In this document: positions 1,705 through 52,117 of the stretch, piece by piece
Layout of the letters: each line of letters begins with the position of its first letter
How positions within the stretch are numbered: the stretch's first letter is position 1
Source of the DNA: Paludibacter sp.
GTDB lineage: Bacteria > Bacteroidota > Bacteroidia > Bacteroidales > Paludibacteraceae
Assembly (NCBI GenBank): GCA_027450045.1
Contig: DAIDKM010000003.1
Span: forward strand, 29,187-93,186
Length of the DNA stretch: 64,000 bases
Reading direction: 5' to 3'
Notes under the pieces: model-generated
The model's input: the letters and a program-made list of their open reading frames with translations, nothing else
Databases searched by the model: none
What the model was told of the DNA's origin: nothing
Made by a program: the position numbers and the translations under genes

Positions 1705-3561
1705 CTATCTTTTTTGTTGTGTGTTTGTTAAGACGTGATTTAGTATGGGTTGCGCTATACCTCGCAATTTGGTTTGAGTAGGGTGATTGAGTTCCAGTAC
1801 CACCACTTCATTATTCCCTTTGTGTAACCATTCGGCAGGGAGATAAAGCGTTTGTTGCGGGCCTACAGACCAGTATCGTCCCAGATTATGCCCGTTTACC
1901 CATACGCAGCCTTTTCCCCACTCTTCCATGTCTAAATAGGTATCCCCAACTTGCGATAGGGTTAATGTGCCTTTTCGCAATAGCGGCTGATTGGGTATAA
2001 CTGGGGAGTTTGTCGACTTTAACAAAGGCATTGCTTGGAAAGGGAATCGGTACATTTGCCATCCCATCAGTTCCTTCTCTTTAAACAATACCTCATGTGT
2101 TATTCCTTTATGATTGTGCAATAAATACGGACCAAAGTTGATTCTCCCAAGGTTTTCAACCAAAATATCCAATACCACTTTCCCTTTTGGCATAATAACG
2201 GCCAAACTATCCTGATTCAATCGACGATCGAGTGTTCCCACTCGTTTCCCATTGATGAAGAGAATGCCATAGTCTCGCAATTGATCAATTTTTAAGATGC
2301 CCTGTGTGCCATCACCATTCAAAACCGTACGGTAAAGCACAAATCCGTAGGCTTGATGCAATTGCTCAAAAGTAAGCGGCGATGGATTTAAAATTGGTAC
2401 AGGTAAAGCACTCATCAGATTTTGTGCTGTCGTAAAATGAATCCATGGAGTGGGTACTGCTTTCTTTGCAGGGGGAACGGCTGGTAACACGGCACCTTTG
2501 GGCAAGTGTTTTTGTATGATTGCACGGAAGGCATAGAACTTTTTCGTCGGATTTCCTGCTTCATCTAAAGGAGCATCATAATCGTAACTGCTTATTTCCG
2601 GTTCGTAAGGAGTACCGTCTTTGTAATTGGCTCCATTCATAAACCCTCGCGTTGTACCTCCATGAAACATGTACATATTGATGGAGATTCCTGCAGCCAG
2701 AACGGAATCTAATCGGGCTGCACTTGCTTCTGCCCCAACCGTGTGATGTGGCGCTCCCCACCAGTCAAACCATCCCGGATACCACTCCGATATAAAATAA
2801 GGTCCTTTCCCTTGATTTACCGAGCGAATCACTTGCTTTACCTTTGAGGGATTGTCTAACCCATTGACAGCCGGTAATAAGCCGGGTAGATGGCCATTCT
2901 CAATGACGGTTGCAGGGTCACAGGTATATAATATGCCATCAAATCCTGCTTTGCGGAACATATCCCGATTCATGGCCAAGTATTCTTTGTCATTAGAATA
3001 GAAACCATATTCATTTTCCACCTGTACCATCAGAATATTACCGCCATGATTAATTTGTAACGGGGCTAATTGTTTGCCTACGGCATCAATATACTCTTTG
3101 TATGCTGCCATATAATGTGGTTCCTTACTTCGCACCACCAAACCCGGAATGTTTTGCAACCAATAGGGATAGCCACCAAATTCCCATTCGGCACACACGT
3201 AAGGGCTGGGACGAATAATAACCCAAAGCCCTTCTTGCTGGGCCATGCGTACAAAGGCTGCTATGTCACGATTGCCCGTAAAATCAAAATGCCCGGGTTG
3301 CGGCTCCTGTTCGTTCCAAAAGACATAGGTACTGATGGTATTTAACCCCATGGCTTTGGCCATCTCCATCCGGCTTCGCCATGCTGCCCTCGGTATGCGC
3401 GTGTAATGCATCTCCCCGGAAATCATTTGCAACGGTTTTCCATCCAATAGAAATACACTGTCGCCTAAAGCAAAAGTGTGCTTGATAGGTTGCTGGGCTT
3501 GGAGAAAAGCAGCACTAACAAAAAATAAAAACAAGAACAATAATACAGAACGGACTTTCAT
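1705..3561 (-). CDS. GH35 beta-galactosidase, signal peptide (probable start MKVRS at 3561)
   Basis: ISGEMHYTRIP, IRPSPYVCAEWEFGG, MVQVENEYG, SEWYPGWFDWWG, NMYMFHGGT, SYDYDAPL and GPQQTLY motifs. Confidence 0.93.
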   Translation of the reverse strand: MKVRSVLLFLFLFFVSAAFLQAQQPIKHTFALGDSVFLLDGKPLQMISGEMHYTRIPRAAWRSRMEMAKAMGLNTISTYVFWNEQEPQPGHFDFTGNRDIAAFVRMAQQEGLWVIIRPSPYVCAEWEFGGYPYWLQNIPGLVVRSKEPHYMAAYKEYIDAVGKQLAPLQINHGGNILMVQVENEYGFYSNDKEYLAMNRDMFRKAGFDGILYTCDPATVIENGHLPGLLPAVNGLDNPSKVKQVIRSVNQGKGPYFISEWYPGWFDWWGAPHHTVGAEASAARLDSVLAAGISINMYMFHGGTTRGFMNGANYKDGTPYEPEISSYDYDAPLDEAGNPTKKFYAFRAIIQKHLPKGAVLPAVPPAKKAVPTPWIHFTTAQNLMSALPVPILNPSPLTFEQLHQAYGFVLYRTVLNGDGTQGILKIDQLRDYGILFINGKRVGTLDRRLNQDSLAVIMPKGKVVLDILVENLGRINFGPYLLHNHKGITHEVLFKEKELMGWQMYRFPFQAMPLLKSTNSPVIPNQPLLRKGTLTLSQVGDTYLDMEEWGKGCVWVNGHNLGRYWSVGPQQTLYLPAEWLHKGNNEVVVLELNHPTQTKLRGIAQPILNHVLTNTQQKR

Positions 3562-3681
3562 AGTTGATCGTTTTTTTAGATAAGTGAGTTTTATTGTCAA
3601 CGCACGAACCAGATTATGCAATAGTATGGTTAGAAAAAATTACAGCGTTTGTGAGATTAGGATACTCCTATTGTATTCACT

Positions 3682-5643
3682 TTATTTTCGAGGAAGTGAG
3701 ATTGAGAATTTGTCGGAACCAGACAGTCTCTTGCTCTTTGATGTTAACAATATTCGATATACATAATCTCTTCCCCAAGCTGTATGTAAACGATCATCAG
3801 GATAAGTCTTTTTTTCAATAGTAACATCAAACTTTTCAGCAGGATAATGAAAATGAAGAACATGATTGTTTATTTGAAAATCAATCATACCTGGCTTCAC
3901 CAATGCAGGTTTTGGGAATGTCATGAATGATAATACGAAAGGCTTCACGAAAGAATCTAAAACATAAGAATCTTCAAGTTCAAAACCGGATGATCTTTTC
4001 AATGTATAGGTTCGTATCCATGTTTTGACATGTGCATTTTCAGGGTAAGCTTTCGCTATATCCAACGAAAATCTGGCAGTTTGTGGATTGTTTTTAAACT
4101 TTACATTTTGTGCTACATATTGTAGTCCATTCTTTTGTAATACTCCGTTAATTGTAGGTAGATTGTGGTATGCCGATTGCATAGTCCATATTTCATAACG
4201 ATGTGAACTAAAAGTTTGCGCTGTATAATCGCCTACACCAACATCAATAAACAAAGGGGTTCCATTATAGTACAATATAAATGATCCGACATCATTATGA
4301 CTGTGACTCCCGGAATCGTGCCCGCCCTTGGCGGCAAAAAAGAATCCGGCGCACGAGCTTTGTACGCTTCTGGCTGTGCACACTTGGATGTCAGGCAACC
4401 AACTATAAGAAAGTAACGGAGCTTTCGGAGATATTTGCTTTAATCCCTGAATAGCCGAAAAAGAGGCAAGAAAATCATAGAGGGAACCATAATCACTTTT
4501 GATAGCTTTTCGATCGTAATGAGATCGTGAAGAAAAATAAGAAGCAAAGCCAAGCATATCAGGATCATTTGTCTGTTTGCCAATATGATATAAAAGTCCA
4601 GGATCAGGAAAGACGGTGGCACTCGCATCTGCAAAATTGACAAAATAGTCGTCACAAATATGTATGCGATAAATATAACGTGCCATTTCGTTGATTTTCT
4701 GATTATGGTACAAATTAATTGCTCCGTTGGATGCACTATATAACAAATCTAAACATTGGAATAAATCACCGGCTGCCCGATTCCAATAATCAGGACCTTC
4801 CTCACAACCACCATCATTCGTGTAAGAATCGATAAAATGATCTAAACTCATTATTGATCTATGCAATGCTACAGCTCTTTTCTCAGGATTTTTCTCCATT
4901 AACAAGATACATGCAAGCCAGTTAGAGTTAATCCATGGATTCCAATTATTTACCGGTCTGTTATTAAATCCCATCCAATCAAAATCCGTTTTCATACAAG
5001 GTTCAAGCATTCTTCTATTCACTTCATCAAACATGCGTTGACGTATGATAGGTGAAACGCTATCTAACTCATCTTTCAATAAATAATATGTCCAGGCAAA
5101 CAAACTAGCGGTTTCGGCATTGAAAAGATCTACAATCTGATCATTCTCATCGGGAAACCCTTTGGTGCTATTTCTATAACTGAGATGAGCCGGAATGCCC
5201 CAAAATGTTTCTTCGCTAGTAGCCCAAATCCCATTAATGATGTCATTTAAAAAACGACCTTTGCCTTCCACTACTTCTGCCATCACGAGAGATGCCAACC
5301 GCTCTCTTCTGCCAAAAATAAGCGATTCATACCTGGTACGATTCCCATTTCGGTAAAAAGATAGAAAATCACTTACAGGCAGTACTTTCCATGGTTTATG
5401 TATCCATTTTTCTCCTTCGGCAATATACGCAGCCTTTAATTGTGGAGAAAGCATTTTATCCCATTGTGTTCGTTGAGCTTCTACAGGAAAAGGATGAAAA
5501 TCCGCTTGTGATTGAATGTGGTTTGTTAAATACTCCATAGTACACAGGCTGGATAGCAGTCGTTTTTGCTCTTGAGCCTGTACCTCATTTAGTAGTATAA
5601 AAGCAAACAAAAATAAAAAAAATGATCTGGGAATTGTTCTCAT
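3682..5643 (-). CDS. Heparinase II/III-like polysaccharide lyase (possibly PL33-type)
   Basis: Signal peptide ending VQA|Q; NNWNPWINSNW, GGCEEGPDYW, FVNFADA, KGGH..SHSHNDVGSF and YHNLPTING, typical of Hepar_II_III-domain proteins. The PL subfamily is inferred only. Confidence 0.8.
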   Translation of the reverse strand: MRTIPRSFFLFLFAFILLNEVQAQEQKRLLSSLCTMEYLTNHIQSQADFHPFPVEAQRTQWDKMLSPQLKAAYIAEGEKWIHKPWKVLPVSDFLSFYRNGNRTRYESLIFGRRERLASLVMAEVVEGKGRFLNDIINGIWATSEETFWGIPAHLSYRNSTKGFPDENDQIVDLFNAETASLFAWTYYLLKDELDSVSPIIRQRMFDEVNRRMLEPCMKTDFDWMGFNNRPVNNWNPWINSNWLACILLMEKNPEKRAVALHRSIMSLDHFIDSYTNDGGCEEGPDYWNRAAGDLFQCLDLLYSASNGAINLYHNQKINEMARYIYRIHICDDYFVNFADASATVFPDPGLLYHIGKQTNDPDMLGFASYFSSRSHYDRKAIKSDYGSLYDFLASFSAIQGLKQISPKAPLLSYSWLPDIQVCTARSVQSSCAGFFFAAKGGHDSGSHSHNDVGSFILYYNGTPLFIDVGVGDYTAQTFSSHRYEIWTMQSAYHNLPTINGVLQKNGLQYVAQNVKFKNNPQTARFSLDIAKAYPENAHVKTWIRTYTLKRSSGFELEDSYVLDSFVKPFVLSFMTFPKPALVKPGMIDFQINNHVLHFHYPAEKFDVTIEKKTYPDDRLHTAWGRDYVYRILLTSKSKRLSGSDKFSISLPRK

Positions 5644-5739
5644 CCTGGCAAATTGTTTAATAGTAGAATTTCAAAATGATGTTATAATGCTTTTGAAAAT
5701 TATTTAGCTGATAATTTATAGCTAAATGTTCAGTGCAAA

Positions 5740-6951
5740 TTAGCGTTTATGCGGGAACAATGGTTCTCCTAAAAGTAGTTTGCGATAGCGCAATAAAGCC
5801 TCAATGTAATAGTAATCAGCATACGATAATGGAACATCTACTTCTGTATGACCAGGTAACGAACCTACGCTATGCATTAATATAAAATCGCCGTTACTTC
5901 CTAATTGTGCCCGAAATACGGGCGACGATAAAGTTCTGATTTGCATTGCTGCAACGTGTAAATATTCTTTAGATGCTTTTTTAGGAACATATTGACTTAG
6001 TTCTATAAAAGCGGAACACATAACGGCTCCTGCCGAAGCATCGCGATATGTATGAGGTATGGCAGGATCATCAAAATCCCAATATGGAATTTTGTCTTTA
6101 GGCAAATGAGGATTATTCAATATGAAAGAGGCAACTTTTTCTGCTTGATCCAAATATTTTGAATTTCCTGTTTTGCGATAACACATGGTATAAGCATACA
6201 ATGCCCATGCCTGTCCGCGAGCCCATGACGATGAATCGGAATAGCCTTGTACCGTTTTATGCGCAATGGCCCTACCTGTGATTGTGTCATACGAAACAAG
6301 GTGAAAACAACTCCCATTGGGTCTGAATTGATTTTCCAATGTCTTATTAGCATGTGAGATAGCAATTTGTTCATACCTTTTATCTCCTGATAAATGTGTT
6401 GCATTAAACATCAATTCAAGATTCATCATATTGTCAATAATCACCGGATATTCCCATTTTGTTCCATTCCAGGAGCGGATGCACCCGACAACCGGATTGA
6501 AGCGGGTGCTTAATGAATGTGCTGCATTTTCTAATACTTTTTTGTATGCTGAATTTCCGGTGATGCGATATCCATTCCCAAAACTGCAGTTGATGATGAA
6601 TCCAACATCGTGAGTGTCAGTTGTGTATTGTTGACTTGCTACTCTTTGTGTAAATGTTTCTGCGTATGATTTCAATTGATTGTCTTTTGAATATTCGTAT
6701 AAATACCAAAGTGATCCTGAGAAAAAACCACTTACCCACCAAGAAGGCGAACAAGTAACTAAGTTTCCTTGTTTATCGATGGTTTGTGGCAATCGTCCCG
6801 GATGATTGAGCATCGTTATTGCCATGAGTGAATCTTGTTTAATGGCAAAATTCAGATTGTGGTCAATTAAAGACAATAAAGATTCGGCCTGGATTTGCCC
6901 AATTGGGATATATAATAATAGCAGTAGCCCCCAAAAATATTTTCTAAGCAT
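5740..6951 (-). CDS. GH88 unsaturated glucuronyl hydrolase
   Basis: WVSGFFSGSLW, HDVGF, VIIDNMMNLE, WARGQAW, DASAGA and YADYYYIEAL motifs. Confidence 0.92.
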   Translation of the reverse strand: MLRKYFWGLLLLLYIPIGQIQAESLLSLIDHNLNFAIKQDSLMAITMLNHPGRLPQTIDKQGNLVTCSPSWWVSGFFSGSLWYLYEYSKDNQLKSYAETFTQRVASQQYTTDTHDVGFIINCSFGNGYRITGNSAYKKVLENAAHSLSTRFNPVVGCIRSWNGTKWEYPVIIDNMMNLELMFNATHLSGDKRYEQIAISHANKTLENQFRPNGSCFHLVSYDTITGRAIAHKTVQGYSDSSSWARGQAWALYAYTMCYRKTGNSKYLDQAEKVASFILNNPHLPKDKIPYWDFDDPAIPHTYRDASAGAVMCSAFIELSQYVPKKASKEYLHVAAMQIRTLSSPVFRAQLGSNGDFILMHSVGSLPGHTEVDVPLSYADYYYIEALLRYRKLLLGEPLFPHKR

Positions 6952-46810: not shown

Positions 46811-49800
46811 TTAATTTGGAACGGTTACGCTTACCACGTGTTTATTCGGAACATAACACAAATAAGCGGATACAGAATAGCCCATTTGTTCGATTAATTG
46901 TTTATAATGCAGCACCTGATCATGATGCTGCGTATTGGGAACGCCAAATTTATAATCAATGACCAGCACGTTGTCTTTATCGAAAACAACCCGATCTGGC
47001 ACATACGAATCTCCATCTGGCGTAAAGATAGCCACTTCATTCAGCGATTTCAGCGCAGGCGCAAACCAGTCACGTGTTTCAGGAATCGACCAGAAGTCGG
47101 CTAACATGCGTTCCACCTCAGTCTTCTCTCCCTGCGTTATGCGCCCAGAGCGTTCCAAATCGGCAACCACCTGATTTGCCTCATCAACATGTTGAATACG
47201 TCGCAGCACATCATGCATCAACAGCCCATAGTTAAGGCGCGATGGTTTGTCCGTGGTTTTTTGTTCCCAGAAATCTTTTGAATGAAACTTTACATCCAAC
47301 ACGCGATCGTGCGTAGAAGGCTGTCCATACGAATACGTCACTCTGTTTGTTTGAATGACTTCCTGTTTCGTTTGCGGGCAACTTCCCAATTCAAGGCGTA
47401 ATTGTTGTTCATCCCAGGCTGACGCTAACGAAATGTTTGGCGAGAGGTCTTCTGCCGAAGAGTCAACTTCATGTTCCTGTACAATACAATGATAAAGCAA
47501 AGACGAAAAGGTAGCAACTTCTTTCTCTGTCTTTTTGGGGCAAGGAGCAAACACCAGGAGCGCTTCTTTGGCGCGTGTCATTGCCACGTAAGCCACATTC
47601 AAGCTATCGATGAGGGTTGATGTCTTTTCTTCCAAATAATCACTTACAAAAATCGTATCAAGCAATTTTGAATTATAATTGATTGGCACTAAGGGTAATT
47701 CATCAAAAGGTTTGCTATTTGGTTCGCACCACAGCATCGCTTGCTGTTTATCCAATTTCCAATCGGTGAAAGGGAATACCACCACTTTGAACCCGAGTCC
47801 TTTCGACTTATGAATGGTCATCACGCGGATAGCGTGTGAAGATTCAGGCGAAGGAACTCTTTTCCGGGAGCCTTTGTCGTCCCACCATGCCAAAAAGGCA
47901 TCGATACCCATTGACTCCGAAAGCGAGAAATGATGCACCCAATCTTGAAATGCCTGCAAGAAAACAGCCTCTGTGTCAACTTTTGAAAAAGGTAGTAACC
48001 CGATAAGTGATTCCGTAAGCTCAAACAACGACCCATTACGTCCCTCTTTCACACAGCGCAAAACGGCTTGTTCAAACACTTCAAAATTAATACGTTGTTC
48101 TTCGCTTGGCAAAAAATAGGCAGTGACTTCAGCGCCCGATGCAATGTCATCGGAAATTTGAAAAAACAGCATGGCAATCTTTGCCCGTAACATAGCATCG
48201 CCGGGATGAAGTACATATCGCATAAGCAACACAAGCAACTGCACCGACTGCGCATTCCCAATAATCAAGGCCTCATCGGAAATTACATCGTACGAATAGC
48301 CAGTCTTTGCGTGTTCACTGTTTTGATACTGGAGCAGATAATTCACAATTTCAGTGGCTTCCACATTGCGTCTCACTAAGATAGCCATATCTCCGGGTTT
48401 GTAGCCGGCATCCTGCCATTTTTCGATCCATTCCACTAAACGTTCCAAAACCGCTTCGCGATACGCTTTCCCCTGTTCATCAATAAACTGGATGGTCACA
48501 CTGCCTTCCATTGCCGTATCAGGACATTGCTGTGCTATTTTATTGTAAGCATGGGTTATTTTGTCATATAAAGGCGCTATTCGCTCATCGTCAGTCCTGT
48601 TTTCAGGAATTAAGCCGCTCACCTGTTGCTGCAAGAACCCTGAAGCAATGGAAAAGAAGGTATTGTTGAAATTGACAATAGCGCGACCACTCCGCCAATT
48701 TTCATTTAAATACACTTCATGAATATGATCTGTGCCCACATCATTAAAAAGCTGTTTGTCGAGCAATTCCCAATTTGAATTACGCCAACGATAAATGCTT
48801 TGTTTAACGTCGCCTACCACAAGATTTTCGTTGCCGGAAGCCAAACTGTTCAATAGTAATGGTCGGAAGTTGAGCCATTGCAAATCGGACGTATCCTGAA
48901 ACTCATCTAACAATAGATGATGAATGTTCACCCCGATCTTTTCAAACACAAAGGGGGTATCGCTTCCATCCACAATTCTTGCCAAGAGTTCCGTCGTATC
49001 CGTTATCAATAACCTGTGCGTTTCGTCCGATTCAAGGCGTATTTGCTCATCAATATCCATTAGAATTCCCAATGCGTAGAGCTGTTTAAGTATCGTTTTA
49101 GCTGTCGCGTATGCACGATAGTGTATTTCAAAATGTTGTAAAATAGCTCCGATTGTATCATTAAGTCCTGTAAAGTAAAGAGATTCAATAAGCTCTTTTT
49201 GGGGCGTTGTTTTGGTAGTCCATTCACTGATTTGATTGTAGAGTTTAATGAATGAATTGGTTGGCGTTGAAATGTCTTTTCGGGCAAATTTCAAAAGCAC
49301 GGCAAAAGGACTTCTCGATTGTCCCTTAAAATCATATATCGTCAGTCCCTGTTTTTCTATGAGTTGCAACGCATGTTCAGCCTTTTGTGCCAACTGATGT
49401 TCAAAAACCGAAGTGATTTTTGTTAATGTAGTTTGATACGTCTCCAAAAACGTTTTATCAAGCAATTTTGCACGAATCAACGGGAACTTCTTTTTGAAAT
49501 CTTCTTTGAATAGTTCTTGCGCCAGGGTGCGAAGCTGGTATTTCAAATTCCATTTCTTCCCTTCTTCAATCTGGTTCGTAGTTAATCGCATTAACCAATC
49601 AAAAAGCTGTTTGTCCTCTTTCGAGTCAAGACGGGATAGCAAATCGTCAATTGCCTTATCTAAGATTTCCTCTGTTTCAATTTCAATGGAATAGCCGCCA
49701 TGCAAGCCGATTTCGCGGGCAAAATTGCGAAGCACTTGTTGAAAAAAGCGATCAATCGTGCTGACGGCAAAAAATGAATAATCGTGCAGAATCTCTTTGA

Positions 49801-50074
49801 GTAGCTGTTCTGCCCGTTGATTGATTTGTTGTGCATTCCAGGTGTATCGTAGCATCAATTCATTCCGAAAGTGGGATGATGCCCCACGCGCCAACCGATC
49901 AAGCTCATCTACGATGCGCAACTTCATTTCATCCGTTGCCTTGTTCGTGAACGTAACGGCTAAGATGCGGCGGTGCGCACCCGACTGGCGGTCATCAAAA
50001 AGCATTTGAATGTAATGTTGCGTCAGGCGAAAGGTTTTGCCTGAACCAGCCGATGCACGATAAAGCTGAAGCAT
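46811..50074 (-). CDS. UvrD/AddA-like helicase with C-terminal PD-(D/E)XK nuclease
   Basis: YRASAGSGKT, AVTFTNKAT, LLDEFQDT, VGDVKQSIYRWR, ENWRS, MTIHKSKGL, YVAMTRA and PDRV...IDYKFG. Confidence 0.92.
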   Translation of the reverse strand: MLQLYRASAGSGKTFRLTQHYIQMLFDDRQSGAHRRILAVTFTNKATDEMKLRIVDELDRLARGASSHFRNELMLRYTWNAQQINQRAEQLLKEILHDYSFFAVSTIDRFFQQVLRNFAREIGLHGGYSIEIETEEILDKAIDDLLSRLDSKEDKQLFDWLMRLTTNQIEEGKKWNLKYQLRTLAQELFKEDFKKKFPLIRAKLLDKTFLETYQTTLTKITSVFEHQLAQKAEHALQLIEKQGLTIYDFKGQSRSPFAVLLKFARKDISTPTNSFIKLYNQISEWTTKTTPQKELIESLYFTGLNDTIGAILQHFEIHYRAYATAKTILKQLYALGILMDIDEQIRLESDETHRLLITDTTELLARIVDGSDTPFVFEKIGVNIHHLLLDEFQDTSDLQWLNFRPLLLNSLASGNENLVVGDVKQSIYRWRNSNWELLDKQLFNDVGTDHIHEVYLNENWRSGRAIVNFNNTFFSIASGFLQQQVSGLIPENRTDDERIAPLYDKITHAYNKIAQQCPDTAMEGSVTIQFIDEQGKAYREAVLERLVEWIEKWQDAGYKPGDMAILVRRNVEATEIVNYLLQYQNSEHAKTGYSYDVISDEALIIGNAQSVQLLVLLMRYVLHPGDAMLRAKIAMLFFQISDDIASGAEVTAYFLPSEEQRINFEVFEQAVLRCVKEGRNGSLFELTESLIGLLPFSKVDTEAVFLQAFQDWVHHFSLSESMGIDAFLAWWDDKGSRKRVPSPESSHAIRVMTIHKSKGLGFKVVVFPFTDWKLDKQQAMLWCEPNSKPFDELPLVPINYNSKLLDTIFVSDYLEEKTSTLIDSLNVAYVAMTRAKEALLVFAPCPKKTEKEVATFSSLLYHCIVQEHEVDSSAEDLSPNISLASAWDEQQLRLELGSCPQTKQEVIQTNRVTYSYGQPSTHDRVLDVKFHSKDFWEQKTTDKPSRLNYGLLMHDVLRRIQHVDEANQVVADLERSGRITQGEKTEVERMLADFWSIPETRDWFAPALKSLNEVAIFTPDGDSYVPDRVVFDKDNVLVIDYKFGVPNTQHHDQVLHYKQLIEQMGYSVSAYLCYVPNKHVVSVTVPN

Positions 50075-50112
50075 AGAAGAAATGTTTGGCTACAAAGATA
50101 GTACAAAACAAA

Positions 50113-50141
50113 AAAGGACTTACCGTGTGAAGTAGTCCTTT
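50113..50141 (-). terminator. Intrinsic terminator after the Ser/Gly-rich gene
   Basis: AAAGGACT-N13-AGTCCTTT followed by a T run on the minus strand, 3 nt after the stop codon. Confidence 0.7.
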
Positions 50142-50144
50142 GCG

Positions 50145-50891
50145 TTAAAGTTTTGCGGATTGGCTCTTTTCTTTTTTTGTTTTTCGGTATTGTCTTGCAG
50201 CATAACCAAATGCAAAAAACAGCATCGGCCATGTGCCATCGCCAACAGGCATTGGTTCGCTGGGATCATTCAACCATCCATCACCGTTGTAGTTGCCATT
50301 ATTTCCTGTAGTGCCACCTTCATTGGTTCCTGTATTTGATGTTCCTTGTCCGTTGACAGCCGTCACTAGGCTGCTTTGAGGAAAGCCTACTGCAAACATA
50401 GCAAATCCGCCGGCAGAAGAGATTCCACCACTTGAAGAAGAACCACCTCCGGAACCGCCGCCTCCAGATCCACTCATACTGCCACCACCACCGATGGCAG
50501 CATTGCTTGCAAACTGAAAGGATAACCCTGAAGAGGCCTGAGGAGAAGACGCAGATGTTGTGCTGCCCGACATGGATGAACCAGATGATGATGTAAAATT
50601 CCACATGGAAGATGCACTGGAGCCTCCGCTATTATTTACAATGGGGTGGTGTGTTGTGACAATGCCGGAACCTTGATTAAAATCGTTATAATGATACAAT
50701 TGTCCGGCGTTTCCCCCCTGAATTGTAATGGGAGTTGGCGCGCTCGATCCTCCCATGAAAAGGCTCTTCAAAAACCGTAAGATAGGAGACAAAGATTGAT
50801 CGCCTTTATATGTCACAGAATAACCATTCATGCTGTTCAGTAGAAACAACAGCAGAATAAAGCAGAATCGATATTTTAGAAGCAATTTCAT
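50145..50891 (-). CDS. Secreted Ser/Gly-rich low-complexity protein with a PEP/PID-CTERM-like tail (probable start MKLLL at 50891)
   Basis: Signal-like N-terminus, S/G tracts, C-terminal PSEPMPVGDGTWPMLFFAFGYAARQYRKTKKEK; own -7 box at 50922-50929. Confidence 0.7.
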   Translation of the reverse strand: MKLLLKYRFCFILLLFLLNSMNGYSVTYKGDQSLSPILRFLKSLFMGGSSAPTPITIQGGNAGQLYHYNDFNQGSGIVTTHHPIVNNSGGSSASSMWNFTSSSGSSMSGSTTSASSPQASSGLSFQFASNAAIGGGGSMSGSGGGGSGGGSSSSGGISSAGGFAMFAVGFPQSSLVTAVNGQGTSNTGTNEGGTTGNNGNYNGDGWLNDPSEPMPVGDGTWPMLFFAFGYAARQYRKTKKEKSQSAKL

Positions 50892-51238
50892 CAATGTCAA
50901 AAAATGCAGTATTATCTTGTGCAAATATATGATTATTAGCAATATGAATAATCAAAACGATTATTACTACTGGAATAACTTTATGCTGTGCTAATATACA
51001 ACTAAACTCTAAATAATTTACAAAGGTAATTCTTTTATGAGGAAGTTTCAAATACAAAAATGTTTTTAACTTCTTTGCATCAATCATTTAAAGAAAAAAT
51101 TAGTCTCGGTATTTTATTCAAGAACAGTTTCAAACGAATCAAGCAGCTTGTTGGAAAAGTCGCAAATATACAATAGCTTTGCACAGAAATAGAGAAATGA
51201 GACACCAGATACATCTGAATCATAAAAATCAATTCGCC

Positions 51239-52117
51239 ATGCTATCAAGACAAACCAAGCTGAAAGGCCTGTTCTTCATTGTGGGATTATTGTTGATAAG
51301 TTGCGGGAATTCCGATCAACAAAAGGCACAAGACTATCTCAACAAAGCACAAGTGTATTATAATCAAAGCCATTACAATCAAGCTAAACTTGCTTTAGAT
51401 AGCATTAGTATCCTTTTTCCACAGTTAATTCCTATGCGTCAGAAGGCGGATACCATGATGTATAAAATTGAACTGCAAGAAGCCAAAAGAAATTTGCAGT
51501 ATGCTGACAGCGTTTTGGTGGTGAAGCAACAAATTGTTGATTCATTGGCACATCCGTTTTCCTATTCAAAAGATACAAAATATGATGAGATAGGTCAATA
51601 CACATATAAAGCTCAACAAACTACAGCCGATGCCACACGCACTTTTCTGAAACCAACTATTGATGAAACCGGAGTGCTAACGATTATGAGCATCTATTGT
51701 GGCGCTCCAATCGGACACACCACAGTGAAAGCCTCCACAAACGGTGTTTTTGCCGAAACCCTTCCTGCTGCTAAAGGCGACTGTTTCAGTTATTCAAATC
51801 TGGGGAAAACATGGGAAAATGTGAATTTTACTGGAAAAGCCATCAATGGTTTAGTGACTTTTATTGGCAACAATGTAAAATTGCCTATAACCATTTCATT
51901 GGAAGGTGGGAAACGAACGGTGAGTTATTTGATGCAACAAAAAGATAAAGAAGCTATTGCACATGCGTACTATTTATCGGAAGCGCTCAAAGAAGTTCAA
52001 CAATTAAAATTGAGTGTGTTACAAGCAAAACAAACCATTGTCATCACAAGCGGGCATCTCCATTTGGATGCCCGAACGATTTTGCAAACTGTCGAAGGAA
52101 AAACGACAATCAATTAA
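51239..52117 (+). CDS. Hypothetical lipoprotein with a TPR-like N-terminus (probable start MLSRQ at 51239)
   Basis: Lipobox LISC, helical [20 protein letters not shown] segment; -7 box TAGCTTTG at 51174-51181. Confidence 0.7.

What the first reader, a model, noticed from the sequence alone, without database searches (positions are those of the whole stretch)
50145..50891. Stand-alone Ser/Gly-rich secreted protein with a PEP/PID-CTERM-like sorting tail
Seen: signal peptide, about 150 aa of S/G/T/N low complexity, then P-S-E-P-M-P-V-G-D-G, a short hydrophobic stretch (TWPMLFFAFGYAA) and a basic cluster (RQYRKTKKEK). It has its own promoter box and terminator. Known: motif + TM + basic tail is the layout of LPXTG and PEP-CTERM signals; the Bacteroidota PID-CTERM type reads roughly P[IV]DGG...GY. 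Inference: a PVGDG variant processed by an exosortase-like enzyme, anchoring a probably O-glycosylated disordered surface protein. No exosortase is in the window.
Basis: partly seen in the sequence, partly recalled or inferred. Interest (0 to 1): 0.62.

Follow-up and report, generated by a model that had tools for sequence, protein, structure and literature searches.

The report
Disordered secreted protein with exosortase-type tail
This gene makes a floppy, serine/glycine-rich exported protein whose last 35 residues are an unannotated cousin of a catalogued but unstudied bacterial sorting tag (PID-CTERM). A membrane protease encoded elsewhere in the same genome probably cuts that tag.

Summary
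Window 50145-50891 (-) is a real 248-aa gene: signal peptide, about 160 aa of G/S/N/T-rich disorder, then PSEPMPVGDG, TWPMLFFAFGYAA and RQYRKTKKEK.

No curated model recognises the tail; PID-CTERM (NF046080) gives no hit. A profile of the tail finds the same layout on small secreted proteins in 99 of 151 genomes of the family (Paludibacteraceae). It also finds at least 781 protein clusters worldwide. In the 147 best, P[VIL]GD lies 25-43 aa from the C-terminus.

Profile-profile comparison links the tail to true PID-CTERM tails (96.8%, same P-x-G...G-Y register).

The genome does encode an exosortase-family enzyme outside the window (contig C37). It passes TIGR04178, has invariant Cys/Arg/His, and scores best to XrtX but far below cut-off. 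Tail and enzyme co-occur: 80 of 82 tail-positive genomes have the enzyme (Fisher p=2e-13), and presence varies together within three genera.

Not supported:
- Paralogous tails in this genome (only one exists).
- The Bacteroidota O-glycosylation sequon (absent).
- Any link to an EPS locus.

Cleavage is inferred, not shown. Verdict: a divergent, uncatalogued variant of the PID-CTERM/XrtX kind.

The parts
50145..50891 (-). Whole gene: 248 codons plus TAA stop (P0001)
   Evidence: Translation. 13 homologues at 46-95% identity, aligned in A1. Conserved synteny FolD / divergent lipoprotein / this gene / AddA-like helicase. RNA contig over 50565-50777.
50922..50956 (-). Bacteroidetes-type promoter, TTTG-N23-TATATTTG; the -7 box ends 31 nt upstream of the ATG
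   Evidence: Pattern search (9 matches in the window against 4.1 expected, so suggestive only). It lies downstream of the alternative TTG start at 50942, which favours ATG 50891 as the start. Homologues also start at MKL.
50823..50891 (-). Signal peptide, residues 1-23 (MKLLLKYRFCFILLLFLLNSMNG)
   Evidence: Read directly from the sequence. Helix at 3-23 in the AlphaFold model. The hydrophobic N-terminus is conserved in full-length homologues. The cleavage site was not predicted with a dedicated tool.
50592..50822 (-). Conserved N-terminal region of the mature protein, residues 24-100 (YSVxYxGDxSxSPILRFLKSLFxG ... GIVTTHH ... MWNF)
   Evidence: Invariant and near-invariant columns in A1. Short predicted helices at 36-45 and 68-74. 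Also conserved in more distant same-genus orthologues (AEYRGDQSRSPFMRFLHNLFWGG).
50271..50756 (-). G/S/N/T-rich disordered passenger, residues 46-207
   Evidence: Composition G 23.5%, S 21.6%, N 8.6%, T 8.0%. pLDDT below 50 throughout residues 46-207.
50148..50279 (-). C-terminal sorting-type tail, residues 205-248 (GWLNDPSEPMPVGDGTWPMLFFAFGYAARQYRKTKKEKSQSAKL)
   Evidence: Nearly invariant among orthologues. It is the only tail-profile hit in its own genome. It matches a class of at least 781 protein clusters.
50238..50249 (-). Signature motif P215-V-G-D218
   Evidence: P and D are invariant and G is at least 90% conserved in 147 global representatives. The motif reads PVGD in 66, PIGD in 63 and PLGD in 16, always 25-43 aa from the C-terminus. 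It aligns with the P-I/V-G of PID-CTERM tails.
50196..50234 (-). Hydrophobic segment, residues 220-232 (TWPMLFFAFGYAA), with Pro at +7 and Gly-Tyr at +14/+15 from the motif Pro
   Evidence: AlphaFold helix at 220-247. Pro at +7 in 117 of 147 and an aromatic at +15 in 142 of 147 class members.
50166..50195 (-). Basic cluster, residues 233-242 (RQYRKTKKEK), predicted to be cytoplasmic
   Evidence: Read from the sequence. A K/R cluster is conserved in all orthologues and class members.
50105..50141 (-). Hairpin plus U-run after the stop codon (probable intrinsic terminator)
   Evidence: RNA fold gives -11.2 kcal/mol, z = -2.44, with 3 of 200 shuffles as good. Not listed by the consensus scanner.

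Best explanation
The gene encodes a Sec-exported, intrinsically disordered Ser/Gly-rich protein. A C-terminal transmembrane helix first holds it in the inner membrane, with the Lys/Arg cluster on the cytoplasmic side. Its last ~35 residues are a tripartite sorting signal: the signature P-[VI]-G-D, then a helix with Pro at +7 and Gly-Tyr at +14/+15, then a basic cluster. This signal is a divergent, uncatalogued relative of the NCBIfam PID-CTERM domain.

The most likely processing enzyme is the 208-aa XrtX-like exosortase encoded on another contig of the same genome (G000 C37:3578-4204, +). It is a polytopic membrane cysteine protease with Cys106, Arg147 and His166. It would cut at or next to the PVGD motif on the outer face of the inner membrane. 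It would then either release the passenger or, by analogy with sortase and archaeosortase A, join the new C-terminus to an unknown acceptor.

In this genus the enzyme has this one protein as its only recognisable substrate.

Shown here: the anatomy, the conservation, the relation to PID-CTERM, the enzyme's presence and catalytic residues, and the genome-wide co-occurrence.

Inferred: cleavage, the cut site, the acceptor and the final location.
For: Anatomy and conservation:
- Sequence features confirmed.
- The tail is nearly invariant in 14 orthologues while the passenger drifts.

The tail as a class:
- The same tail sits on otherwise unrelated small secreted proteins, 1-8 per genome, in 99 of 151 genomes of the family.
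- It is found in at least 781 clusters among 1.84 billion representatives.
- In the best 147, P[VIL]GD lies 25-43 aa (median 30) from the C-terminus in 145.
- Pro at +7 in 117 of 147 and an aromatic at +15 in 142 of 147.

Relation to PID-CTERM:
- hhalign against tails of tiny Bacteroidales proteins gives 96.8%, E = 2.6e-10, in the same register.
- Of 8 such proteins tested (6 of them among the 13 aligned), one passes NF046080 (30.8 bits against a cut-off of 26) and three score 23.7-25.3.

Enzyme:
- TIGR04178 scores 58.2 bits against a cut-off of 23. The best subtype is XrtX.
- N144, R147 and H166 are invariant in 78 orthologues. C106 is also invariant, though the way sequences were selected required it.

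Co-occurrence in the family, at tail E <= 1e-3:
- 80 genomes have both, 2 have the tail only, 33 have the enzyme only and 36 have neither; p = 2e-13.
- Of the two exceptions, one is a 62%-complete MAG and the other is a TM-only match inside an 864-aa ORF.
- Presence and absence vary together within genera g211, g213 and g238.
- All 8 genomes of the own genus have one tail protein and one enzyme.

Independent lineages of the order:
- 32 of 38 tail-positive genomes have the enzyme, against a 41% background; odds ratio 10, p = 7e-9.
- In G213 a gene for a PID-type mini-protein (23.7 bits to NF046080, just under its cut-off) ends about 100 bp before the exosortase gene.
Against: - No experiment on any PID-CTERM/XrtX pair exists; 0 papers mention PID-CTERM.
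- The enzyme and this gene are on different contigs. In 76 exosortase loci only one weak tail hit lies within 6 kb.
- 33 family genomes have the enzyme but no detectable tail, so the enzyme may have other substrates, or the tail model may miss divergent ones.
- The co-occurrence statistics are not corrected for phylogeny.
- The hydrophobic segment here is short and interrupted by Arg233.
- The tail fails the curated PID-CTERM model. The enzyme fails the XrtX cut-off. The XrtX-associated protein NF046082 is absent.
Confidence: 0.62

Rival explanations
1. Plain bitopic membrane protein. The C-terminal helix is a permanent inner-membrane anchor that is never cleaved. The P-x-G-D motif is conserved for another reason, such as helix capping or contact with a partner. 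The co-occurrence with the exosortase would then reflect shared ancestry.
For: - The TM helix plus a positive-inside cluster is enough on its own to anchor the protein.
- No cleavage data exist for this class.
- The enzyme gene is unlinked.
- 33 genomes carry the enzyme without a detected tail.
Against: - An invariant short motif at a fixed distance from the helix and from the C-terminus, on unrelated passengers, is the hallmark of processed sorting signals (layout as described by Haft, bioRxiv 10.1101/2023.06.07.544157).
- Tail and enzyme are gained and lost together within three genera.
- The association repeats in other families of the order.
Confidence: 0.2
2. The tail is recognised by machinery other than the exosortase, for example a T9SS-linked or other membrane partner. 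The class would serve as membrane-anchored accessory proteins of large type IX-secreted adhesins. The Microbacter protein would be a stand-alone derivative.
For: - Outside Microbacter, tail-protein genes lie directly downstream of genes whose products end in a T9SS sorting domain. 15 of 17 upstream C-termini hit TIGR04183.
- In G044 the three upstream proteins are 1740-2589 aa, with Ig-like, Listeria-Bacteroides repeat, fn3 and LTD domains.
Against: - The window's gene has no T9SS cargo gene beside it. Its neighbours are a divergent lipoprotein gene and a helicase gene.
- A T9SS link would not explain the tight co-occurrence with the exosortase.
- The two ideas are compatible: the protein could be an exosortase substrate that also partners T9SS cargo.
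Confidence: 0.12
3. Not a functional protein-coding gene: a chance ORF in low-complexity DNA.
For: There is no family annotation. The middle of the protein is low-complexity.
Against: - The ORF is kept in 13 relatives down to 46% identity, with a conserved N-terminal region and tail.
- It has conserved synteny.
- It has its own promoter-like box and terminator-like hairpin.
- A transcriptome contig covers part of it.
Confidence: 0.02

Closest known systems
PID-CTERM protein-sorting domain (NCBIfam NF046080), on tiny Bacteroidales proteins
   Same: - Extreme C-terminal tripartite tail.
- P-[IV]-G at the start, a small residue at +4, G-Y at +14/+15 and a Lys-rich end.
- The profiles align at 96.8% probability.
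- Carrier genomes are enriched for a small XrtX-like exosortase.
   Different: - The curated model gives no hit on this protein and touches only 1 of 147 class representatives.
- The motif here is P-[VIL]-G-D with Pro at +7, and an acidic/Pro-rich lead-in replaces the GGGA lead-in.
- The carrier is 248 aa with a ~190-aa disordered passenger, rather than a 60-100 aa protein with almost no passenger.
Exosortase X (XrtX, NF046081) with its associated protein (NF046082)
   Same: - XrtX is the best-scoring subtype for the genome's exosortase.
- Same size class (~170-210 aa), the same core signature (TIGR04178), and Cys/Arg/His present.
   Different: - Scores 59 bits against a cut-off of 170.
- The associated protein is absent from the genome.
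- The gene sits in housekeeping synteny (tsaD in 59 of 76 loci) and not next to its substrate.
PEP-CTERM / exosortase A (EpsH) systems of Proteobacteria and Cyanobacteria
   Same: - The same enzyme superfamily and the same signal logic (motif, TM helix, basic cluster).
- Substrates are dispersed in the genome, as described by Haft.
   Different: - No PEP-CTERM model hit.
- The enzyme scores 24.5 bits to TIGR02602 against a cut-off of 105.6.
- There is no EPS locus around the enzyme.
- There is one substrate here rather than dozens.
PGF-CTERM / archaeosortase A of Haloferax volcanii
   Same: It is the only member of the superfamily with experimental proof of tail removal coupled to lipid attachment (as summarised). 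This makes it the mechanistic model for what may happen here.
   Different: It is archaeal, has a different motif, acts on an S-layer glycoprotein substrate, and its enzyme is of a different subfamily (23.8 bits against a cut-off of 75).

Membership tests
PID-CTERM sorting domain (NCBIfam NF046080) | Scores at or above the curated cut-off (26 bits) of the PID_CTERM model | tested here: not met
   - hmmscan of the whole protein and of the 51-aa tail at E <= 10 gives no hit.
- A six-frame search of the genome with NF046080 finds only an unrelated 12-bit match on C7.
PID-CTERM sorting domain (NCBIfam NF046080) | Tripartite tail (signature motif, TM helix, basic cluster) at the extreme C-terminus of a protein with an N-terminal signal peptide | tested here: met
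   Residues 215-242 lie 34 aa from the end. Signal-peptide-like N-terminus.
PID-CTERM sorting domain (NCBIfam NF046080) | Detectable homology of the tail to PID-CTERM tails | tested here: met
   - hhalign of A3 against A7 gives 96.8%, E = 2.6e-10 over 35 columns, with P-x-G and G-Y in register.
- Caveat: the A7 tails were first found with the A3 profile.
- Of 8 such proteins tested against NF046080 (6 of them in A7), one passes (30.8 bits) and three score 23.7-25.3.
PID-CTERM sorting domain (NCBIfam NF046080) | Carrier is a tiny protein (about 60-100 aa) with almost no passenger | tested here: not met
   This protein is 248 aa with a ~190-aa passenger. PID-type carriers seen here come from 77-120 aa open frames.
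XrtX system (NF046081 exosortase X plus NF046082 associated protein) | Exosortase scoring at or above 170 bits to NF046081 | tested here: not met
   59.3 bits. Other Bacteroidales small exosortases, including one adjacent to a PID-type mini-protein gene (23.7 bits to NF046080), also score only 66-82 bits.
XrtX system (NF046081 exosortase X plus NF046082 associated protein) | XrtX-associated membrane protein (NF046082) present | tested here: not met
   No match at E <= 1 in the 98.8%-complete genome.
Exosortase/archaeosortase superfamily (TIGR04178, PF09721) | Signature-region model above cut-off for a gene in the same genome | tested here: met
   TIGR04178 scores 58.2 bits against 23. PF09721 scores 25.9 against 25.7 on the protein.
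Exosortase/archaeosortase superfamily (TIGR04178, PF09721) | Conserved Cys, Arg and His (proposed catalytic triad; Haft) | tested here: met
   C106, R147 and H166 are invariant in 7 orthologues and in 78. In the larger set, C106 was required by the selection pattern; R147, N144 and H166 were not.
Exosortase/archaeosortase superfamily (TIGR04178, PF09721) | Co-occurrence of the enzyme subfamily with its sorting signal across genomes | tested here: met
   - 80 of 82 tail-positive family genomes have the enzyme (p = 2e-13).
- 32 of 38 in other families of the order (p = 7e-9).
- Not corrected for phylogeny.
Exosortase/archaeosortase superfamily (TIGR04178, PF09721) | Enzyme-dependent removal of the tail | not testable with these tools
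   Needs C-terminal mapping in wild type against an enzyme mutant.
PEP-CTERM / EpsH exosortase | PEP-CTERM model hit on the tail; 8-TM EpsH-type enzyme; EPS locus context | tested here: not met
   - No PEP-CTERM hit.
- TIGR02602 scores 24.5 bits against 105.55.
- The enzyme's neighbours are tsaD, a TamB-like gene and murC, not EPS genes.
T9SS C-terminal sorting domain cargo | TIGR04183 / PF18962 domain at the C-terminus | tested here: not met
   No hit on the protein. Such domains are on the upstream neighbours of related tail proteins in other genera, not on this protein.
Bacteroidota general O-glycosylation substrates | Sequon D-[ST]-[AILVMT] in an exported region (established knowledge: Fletcher, Coyne, Comstock and colleagues) | tested here: not met
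   No sequon in P0001 or in 12 of its 13 homologues. The single instance lies in the cytoplasmic end of P0012.

The most novel reading that the evidence does not exclude
P[VIL]GD/PID-type tails may mark a large, unrecognised class of ribosomally made, disordered 'stub' proteins. Small XrtX-like exosortases would process these and couple them to an envelope acceptor. The products would serve as adaptors or anchors for giant type IX-secreted adhesins, which are encoded immediately upstream in most genera. That would physically link two sorting systems (exosortase and T9SS) that have been treated as separate. The Microbacter protein, with its long Ser/Gly passenger and no adjacent T9SS gene, would be a derived stand-alone form, for instance a surface coat or spacer. 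It would also be the sole substrate of its enzyme, which makes the pair a clean minimal model for finding out what exosortases attach proteins to.
Probability: 0.15. Interest if true: 0.75.

Novelty: new variant of a known kind. Interest (0 to 1): 0.45.

Why it matters
Exosortases are widespread, but their chemistry is unknown in bacteria: neither the cut site nor the acceptor has been established. PID-CTERM/XrtX exists only as database models, with no paper.

This locus belongs to a sister class that those models miss, with at least 781 clusters, mainly in Paludibacteraceae. In this genus the system is reduced to one enzyme and one substrate, and a cultured relative (Microbacter margulisiae) carries the orthologue. 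That makes the question 'what does a bacterial exosortase do to its substrate?' directly testable.

For annotation, a P[VIL]GD-CTERM model and an XrtX-like subfamily model would give names to many 'hypothetical proteins'. The recurrent pairing of such tail proteins with giant T9SS adhesin genes in sister genera hints at cross-talk between two sorting pathways.

Tried and rejected
- **Family scans of the protein and its tail.** Pfam and NCBIfam gave nothing, apart from a 12.7-bit chance match to Acyl_transf_3.
- **Paralogous tails in the own genome.** The tail HMM on all six-frame ORFs finds only the gene itself. A generic screen for 'hydrophobic stretch plus K/R at the C-terminus' gave 79 ordinary membrane proteins with no shared motif, and its hydrophobicity threshold even missed the target.
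- **Exosortase-substrate adjacency.** Only 1 weak hit in 76 loci. The enzyme has no EPS-type or other functional operon around it; its neighbours are tsaD, a TamB-like gene and murC.
- **Other named sorting systems.** PID_CTERM, XrtX-associated protein, XrtF, PEP-CTERM, LPXTG and T9SS CTD were each tested and not met.
- **Literature.** 0 papers mention PID-CTERM.
- **Consensus terminator scan.** It missed the hairpin after the stop; folding shows it.
- **AlphaFold.** It gave a low-confidence model (pLDDT 44.6) that is useful only to show disorder and the two terminal helices. I therefore made no fold search.
- **O-glycosylation.** Rejected for lack of the sequon.
- **Longer TTG start at 50942.** Rejected because it lies upstream of the -7 box and because homologues start at MKL.
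Full report
**1. Observation**

Window 50145-50891 on the minus strand translates to 248 residues plus a TAA stop.
- a hydrophobic N-terminus with a basic start (MKLLLKYRFCFILLLFLLNSMNG);
- a stretch (residues 46-207) that is 23.5% Gly, 21.6% Ser, 8.6% Asn and 8.0% Thr;
- PSEPMPVGDG (210-219), TWPMLFFAFGYAA (220-232) and RQYRKTKKEK (233-242).

AlphaFold2 on a 14-sequence alignment gives mean pLDDT 44.6. It models helices only at 3-23, 36-45, 68-74 and 220-247, and pLDDT is below 50 for residues 46-207. The protein is therefore a signal peptide, a disordered passenger and a C-terminal helix.

A Bacteroidetes-type promoter pattern (TTTG-N23-TATATTTG) lies at 50956-50922 (-), and its -7 box ends 31 nt before the ATG. 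A hairpin with a U-run follows the stop (-11.2 kcal/mol, z = -2.4).

A longer ORF from TTG 50942 is unlikely. It starts upstream of the -7 box, and homologues begin at the MKL start.

**2. A real, conserved gene**

A search of 5.8 billion proteins gave 13 homologues at 46-95% identity. None carries a Pfam domain, and the named ones are 'hypothetical protein' from Microbacter.

In the alignment (A1):
- The N-terminal ~75 mature residues are conserved (YSVxYxGDxSxSPILRFLKSLFxG...).
- The tail is nearly invariant (GWL[NP]DP[SG]EP[ML]P[VI]GD[GA]TxPM[LM]xFA..Y).
- The middle of the protein drifts.

Synteny is conserved: FolD, then in the two relatives examined (not in the window) an MFS transporter, a divergently transcribed 277-312 aa lipoprotein with no family, this gene, and a 1087-aa AddA/RecB-like helicase.

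A 213-nt contig from a mine-drainage metatranscriptome, with 3 differences, covers 50565-50777. This is modest evidence of transcription. DNA carry-over cannot be excluded.

**3. No curated family fits**

Pfam and NCBIfam scans of the protein and of the tail alone found nothing meaningful at E <= 10. A six-frame search of the genome with it does not touch this gene.

**4. The tail is not repeated in this genome, but it defines a class**

A tail HMM against all six-frame ORFs of the 2.96-Mb genome finds only the gene itself. A broader profile also finds just one.

Across 151 genomes of the same GTDB family the picture is different. By record titles these are Paludibacter, Microbacter and other Paludibacteraceae.
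- A profile of 25 tails (A3) hits 99 genomes, with 1-8 hits each.
- Nearly all hits are at the end of 100-275 aa open frames.
- The proteins read out have an N-terminal signal-peptide-like segment, an unrelated low-complexity passenger, and then the tail.
- The tail has an acidic/Pro-rich lead-in, P-[VIL]-G-D-[GA]-x-x-P-[LM]-L-L...A..Y, and a K/R cluster.

Against 1.84 billion cluster representatives the profile finds 781 proteins at E <= 1e-3. In the best 147:
- P and D of the motif are invariant.
- The motif reads PVGD in 66, PIGD in 63 and PLGD in 16, and lies 25-43 residues (median 30) from the C-terminus in 145.
- Protein length is 50-273 aa, median 129.
- Pro is at +7 in 117 and an aromatic at +15 in 142.
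- Only 1 of the 147 touches PID_CTERM at E <= 0.01, and none of the other curated C-terminal domains is hit convincingly.
- The only named members looked up are 'hypothetical protein'. One is from a Paludibacteraceae MAG; two JGI entries name no organism.

**5. Relation to PID-CTERM**

In other families of the order the A3 profile picks up much smaller proteins (77-120 aa frames). These have the form signal peptide, Pro/Gly-rich stretch, then GGGAP[IV]G[GDS]GL..LL.LGAGYG.KK.

Of eight tested, one passes the curated PID_CTERM model (30.8 bits against 26) and three score 23.7-25.3, just under it.

A profile-profile comparison of our tails (A3) with 13 such tails (A7) gives 96.8% probability, E = 2.6e-10. 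P-x-G and the G-Y at +14/+15 fall in the same columns.

The A7 set was first found with A3, so this result is not fully independent. The one pass and three near-cut-off scores to NCBIfam's own model are independent of A3.

I conclude that the tail is a divergent sister of PID-CTERM and not a member by the curated test.

**6. The enzyme**

The window holds no exosortase, but the genome does. C37:3578-4204 (+) encodes a 208-aa protein. Its scores are:

| Model | Bits | Cut-off |
|---|---|---|
| TIGR04178 (exosortase/archaeosortase signature) | 58.2 | 23 |
| PF09721 | 25.9 | 25.7 |
| XrtX (NF046081), best subtype | 59.3 | 170 |
| XrtF | 39.5 | 90 |

.

WGCT (Cys106), N144-x-x-R147 and H166 are invariant in 7 orthologues and in 78. 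In the larger set, Cys106 was required by my selection pattern; the others were not. Cys, Arg and His are the proposed catalytic triad of this superfamily (Haft, bioRxiv 10.1101/2023.06.07.544157, read).

The XrtX-associated protein NF046082 is absent from the genome.

A scan of GTDB genomes found 112 relatives of the enzyme, almost all in records titled Paludibacter, Microbacter or Paludibacteraceae. The enzyme's neighbours are housekeeping genes: tsaD in 59 of 76 loci, a 1500-aa ORF that looks TamB-like by eye (no domain search was run) in 25, and murC in the own genus. They are not EPS genes. Tail proteins are not nearby; there is 1 weak hit in 76 loci.

**7. Co-occurrence**

In the same 151 family genomes the enzyme is present in 113. 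With the tail called at E <= 1e-3 the table is:

| | Enzyme present | Enzyme absent |
|---|---|---|
| Tail present | 80 | 2 |
| Tail absent | 33 | 36 |

Fisher p = 2e-13.

The two 'tail only' genomes are a 62%-complete MAG and a TM-only match inside an 864-aa ORF.

Six genera lack the enzyme altogether. None of them has a tail hit better than 1e-4.

Three genera (g211, g213, g238) contain both enzyme-plus-tail genomes and genomes with neither. All eight genomes of the own genus have exactly one enzyme, and seven of them exactly one tail protein (one has three profile matches).

The association repeats in other families of the order, which are independent lineages. XrtX-like enzymes of ~200 aa occur in 122 of 297 genomes there. 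Of 38 genomes with a tail or PID-type hit, 32 have the enzyme (odds ratio 10, p = 7e-9). In G213 the gene of a PID-type mini-protein (23.7 bits to NF046080) ends about 100 bp upstream of the exosortase gene, and that enzyme also scores only 82 bits to XrtX.

These tests are not corrected for phylogeny. The 33 enzyme-only genomes show that the tail model is incomplete or that other substrates exist.

**8. Mechanism proposed**

- The protein is exported through Sec via its signal peptide.
- The C-terminal helix holds it in the inner membrane, with the K/R cluster inside.
- The XrtX-like exosortase recognises P-V-G-D at the outer face and cuts there.
- The passenger is then released, or its new C-terminus is joined to an unknown acceptor, as in sortase A and archaeosortase A.

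The features and the co-occurrence are shown. Cleavage, the cut site, the acceptor and the final location are inferred.

The Bacteroidota sequon D-[ST]-[AILVMT] is absent from this protein and from all but one homologue, and in that homologue it lies in the cytoplasmic end.

**9. Rivals**

- A permanent, uncleaved membrane anchor remains possible (about 0.2).
- A role tied to type IX secretion is suggested by sister genera. There the tail-protein gene follows, on the same strand and within about 100 nt, a gene whose product ends in a T9SS sorting domain. 15 of 17 upstream C-termini hit TIGR04183. In G044 the three upstream proteins are 1740-2589 aa adhesin-like proteins.
- The window's gene is not in such a cassette, and this idea is compatible with exosortase processing.

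**10. Earlier notes of this scan**

I consulted these after reaching the reading above. They describe PID-CTERM mini-proteins beside XrtX-like exosortases and behind T9SS cargo genes in other Bacteroidales genomes. They agree with what I found and pointed me to NF046082, which I then tested. They are AI notes and I do not count them as independent support.

**11. Verdict**

It is wrong or unsupported in detail: the tail is not a member by the curated model, there are no paralogues in this genome, and there is no glycosylation sequon.

It is a new, uncatalogued variant of a database-known but experimentally unstudied system. Its particular value is that here the system is reduced to one enzyme and one substrate, in a genus that has a cultured species.

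Noticed in passing
L011, L013, L014 and L181-L183 (genome G044); L020-L043 (other Paludibacteraceae): In sister genera the small P[VIL]GD-tail genes sit directly downstream, on the same strand, of genes for giant T9SS-secreted adhesin-like proteins. In G044 these are 1740, 1758 and 2589 aa, with Ig-like, Listeria-Bacteroides repeat, fn3 and LTD domains. 15 of 17 upstream C-termini match the T9SS type A sorting domain. This suggests a link between exosortase-type and type IX sorting.
   Followed up: partly
Global class representatives P0015-P0161 (alignment A5): 41 of 147 tail proteins carry a GPR[KR] motif about 20 residues (range 12-37) upstream of P-x-G-D. It might be a second processing or recognition site. 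The window's protein lacks it.
   Followed up: no
Tail proteins of several genera (L056, L059, L062, L069, L070; window residues 24-28): Many class members share a short [AS]-V-[NDT]-Y motif right after the predicted signal-peptide cleavage region (window: YSVTY). Both ends of these otherwise unrelated proteins are therefore constrained.
   Followed up: no
window 51179-52117 (+): The divergently transcribed neighbour encodes a 312-aa putative lipoprotein (LLISCGNS lipobox) with no Pfam or NCBIfam family. It is kept next to the target gene in Microbacter relatives as a 277-291 aa protein. It may be functionally linked or merely syntenic.
   Followed up: partly
window 46811-50074 (-): The downstream gene encodes a 1087-aa UvrD/RecB-like helicase-nuclease (AddA/RecB-type; best NCBIfam match 'RecB-like helicase' at 267 bits, below cut-off). 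It has a Cas4-like nuclease end and is separated from the target gene by the terminator-like hairpin.
   Followed up: no
G000 contig C37 (locus L008) 2381-3578 and 4352-6244: About 1.2 kb upstream of the exosortase gene has no ORF of 90 aa or more. Downstream lie a 299-aa P-loop ATPase and a 329-aa ORF that are not part of the tsaD/murC synteny seen in relatives. They may be an inserted two-gene module.
   Followed up: no
Order-wide genomes G001-G300: Small (~200 aa) XrtX-like exosortases occur in 126 of 301 Bacteroidales genomes (90 of 208 genera). The three further enzymes tested (from G213, G181 and G160) score only 66-82 bits to XrtX, far below its 170-bit cut-off, as does the window genome's own (59 bits). 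If that holds more widely, most of this clade is uncatalogued by the subtype models.
   Followed up: partly
window 49700-51400: Near-identical DNA is found mainly in mine-drainage, mine-tailings, landfill and wastewater metagenomes. The source organism is a Microbacter-like MAG from such a habitat.
   Followed up: no
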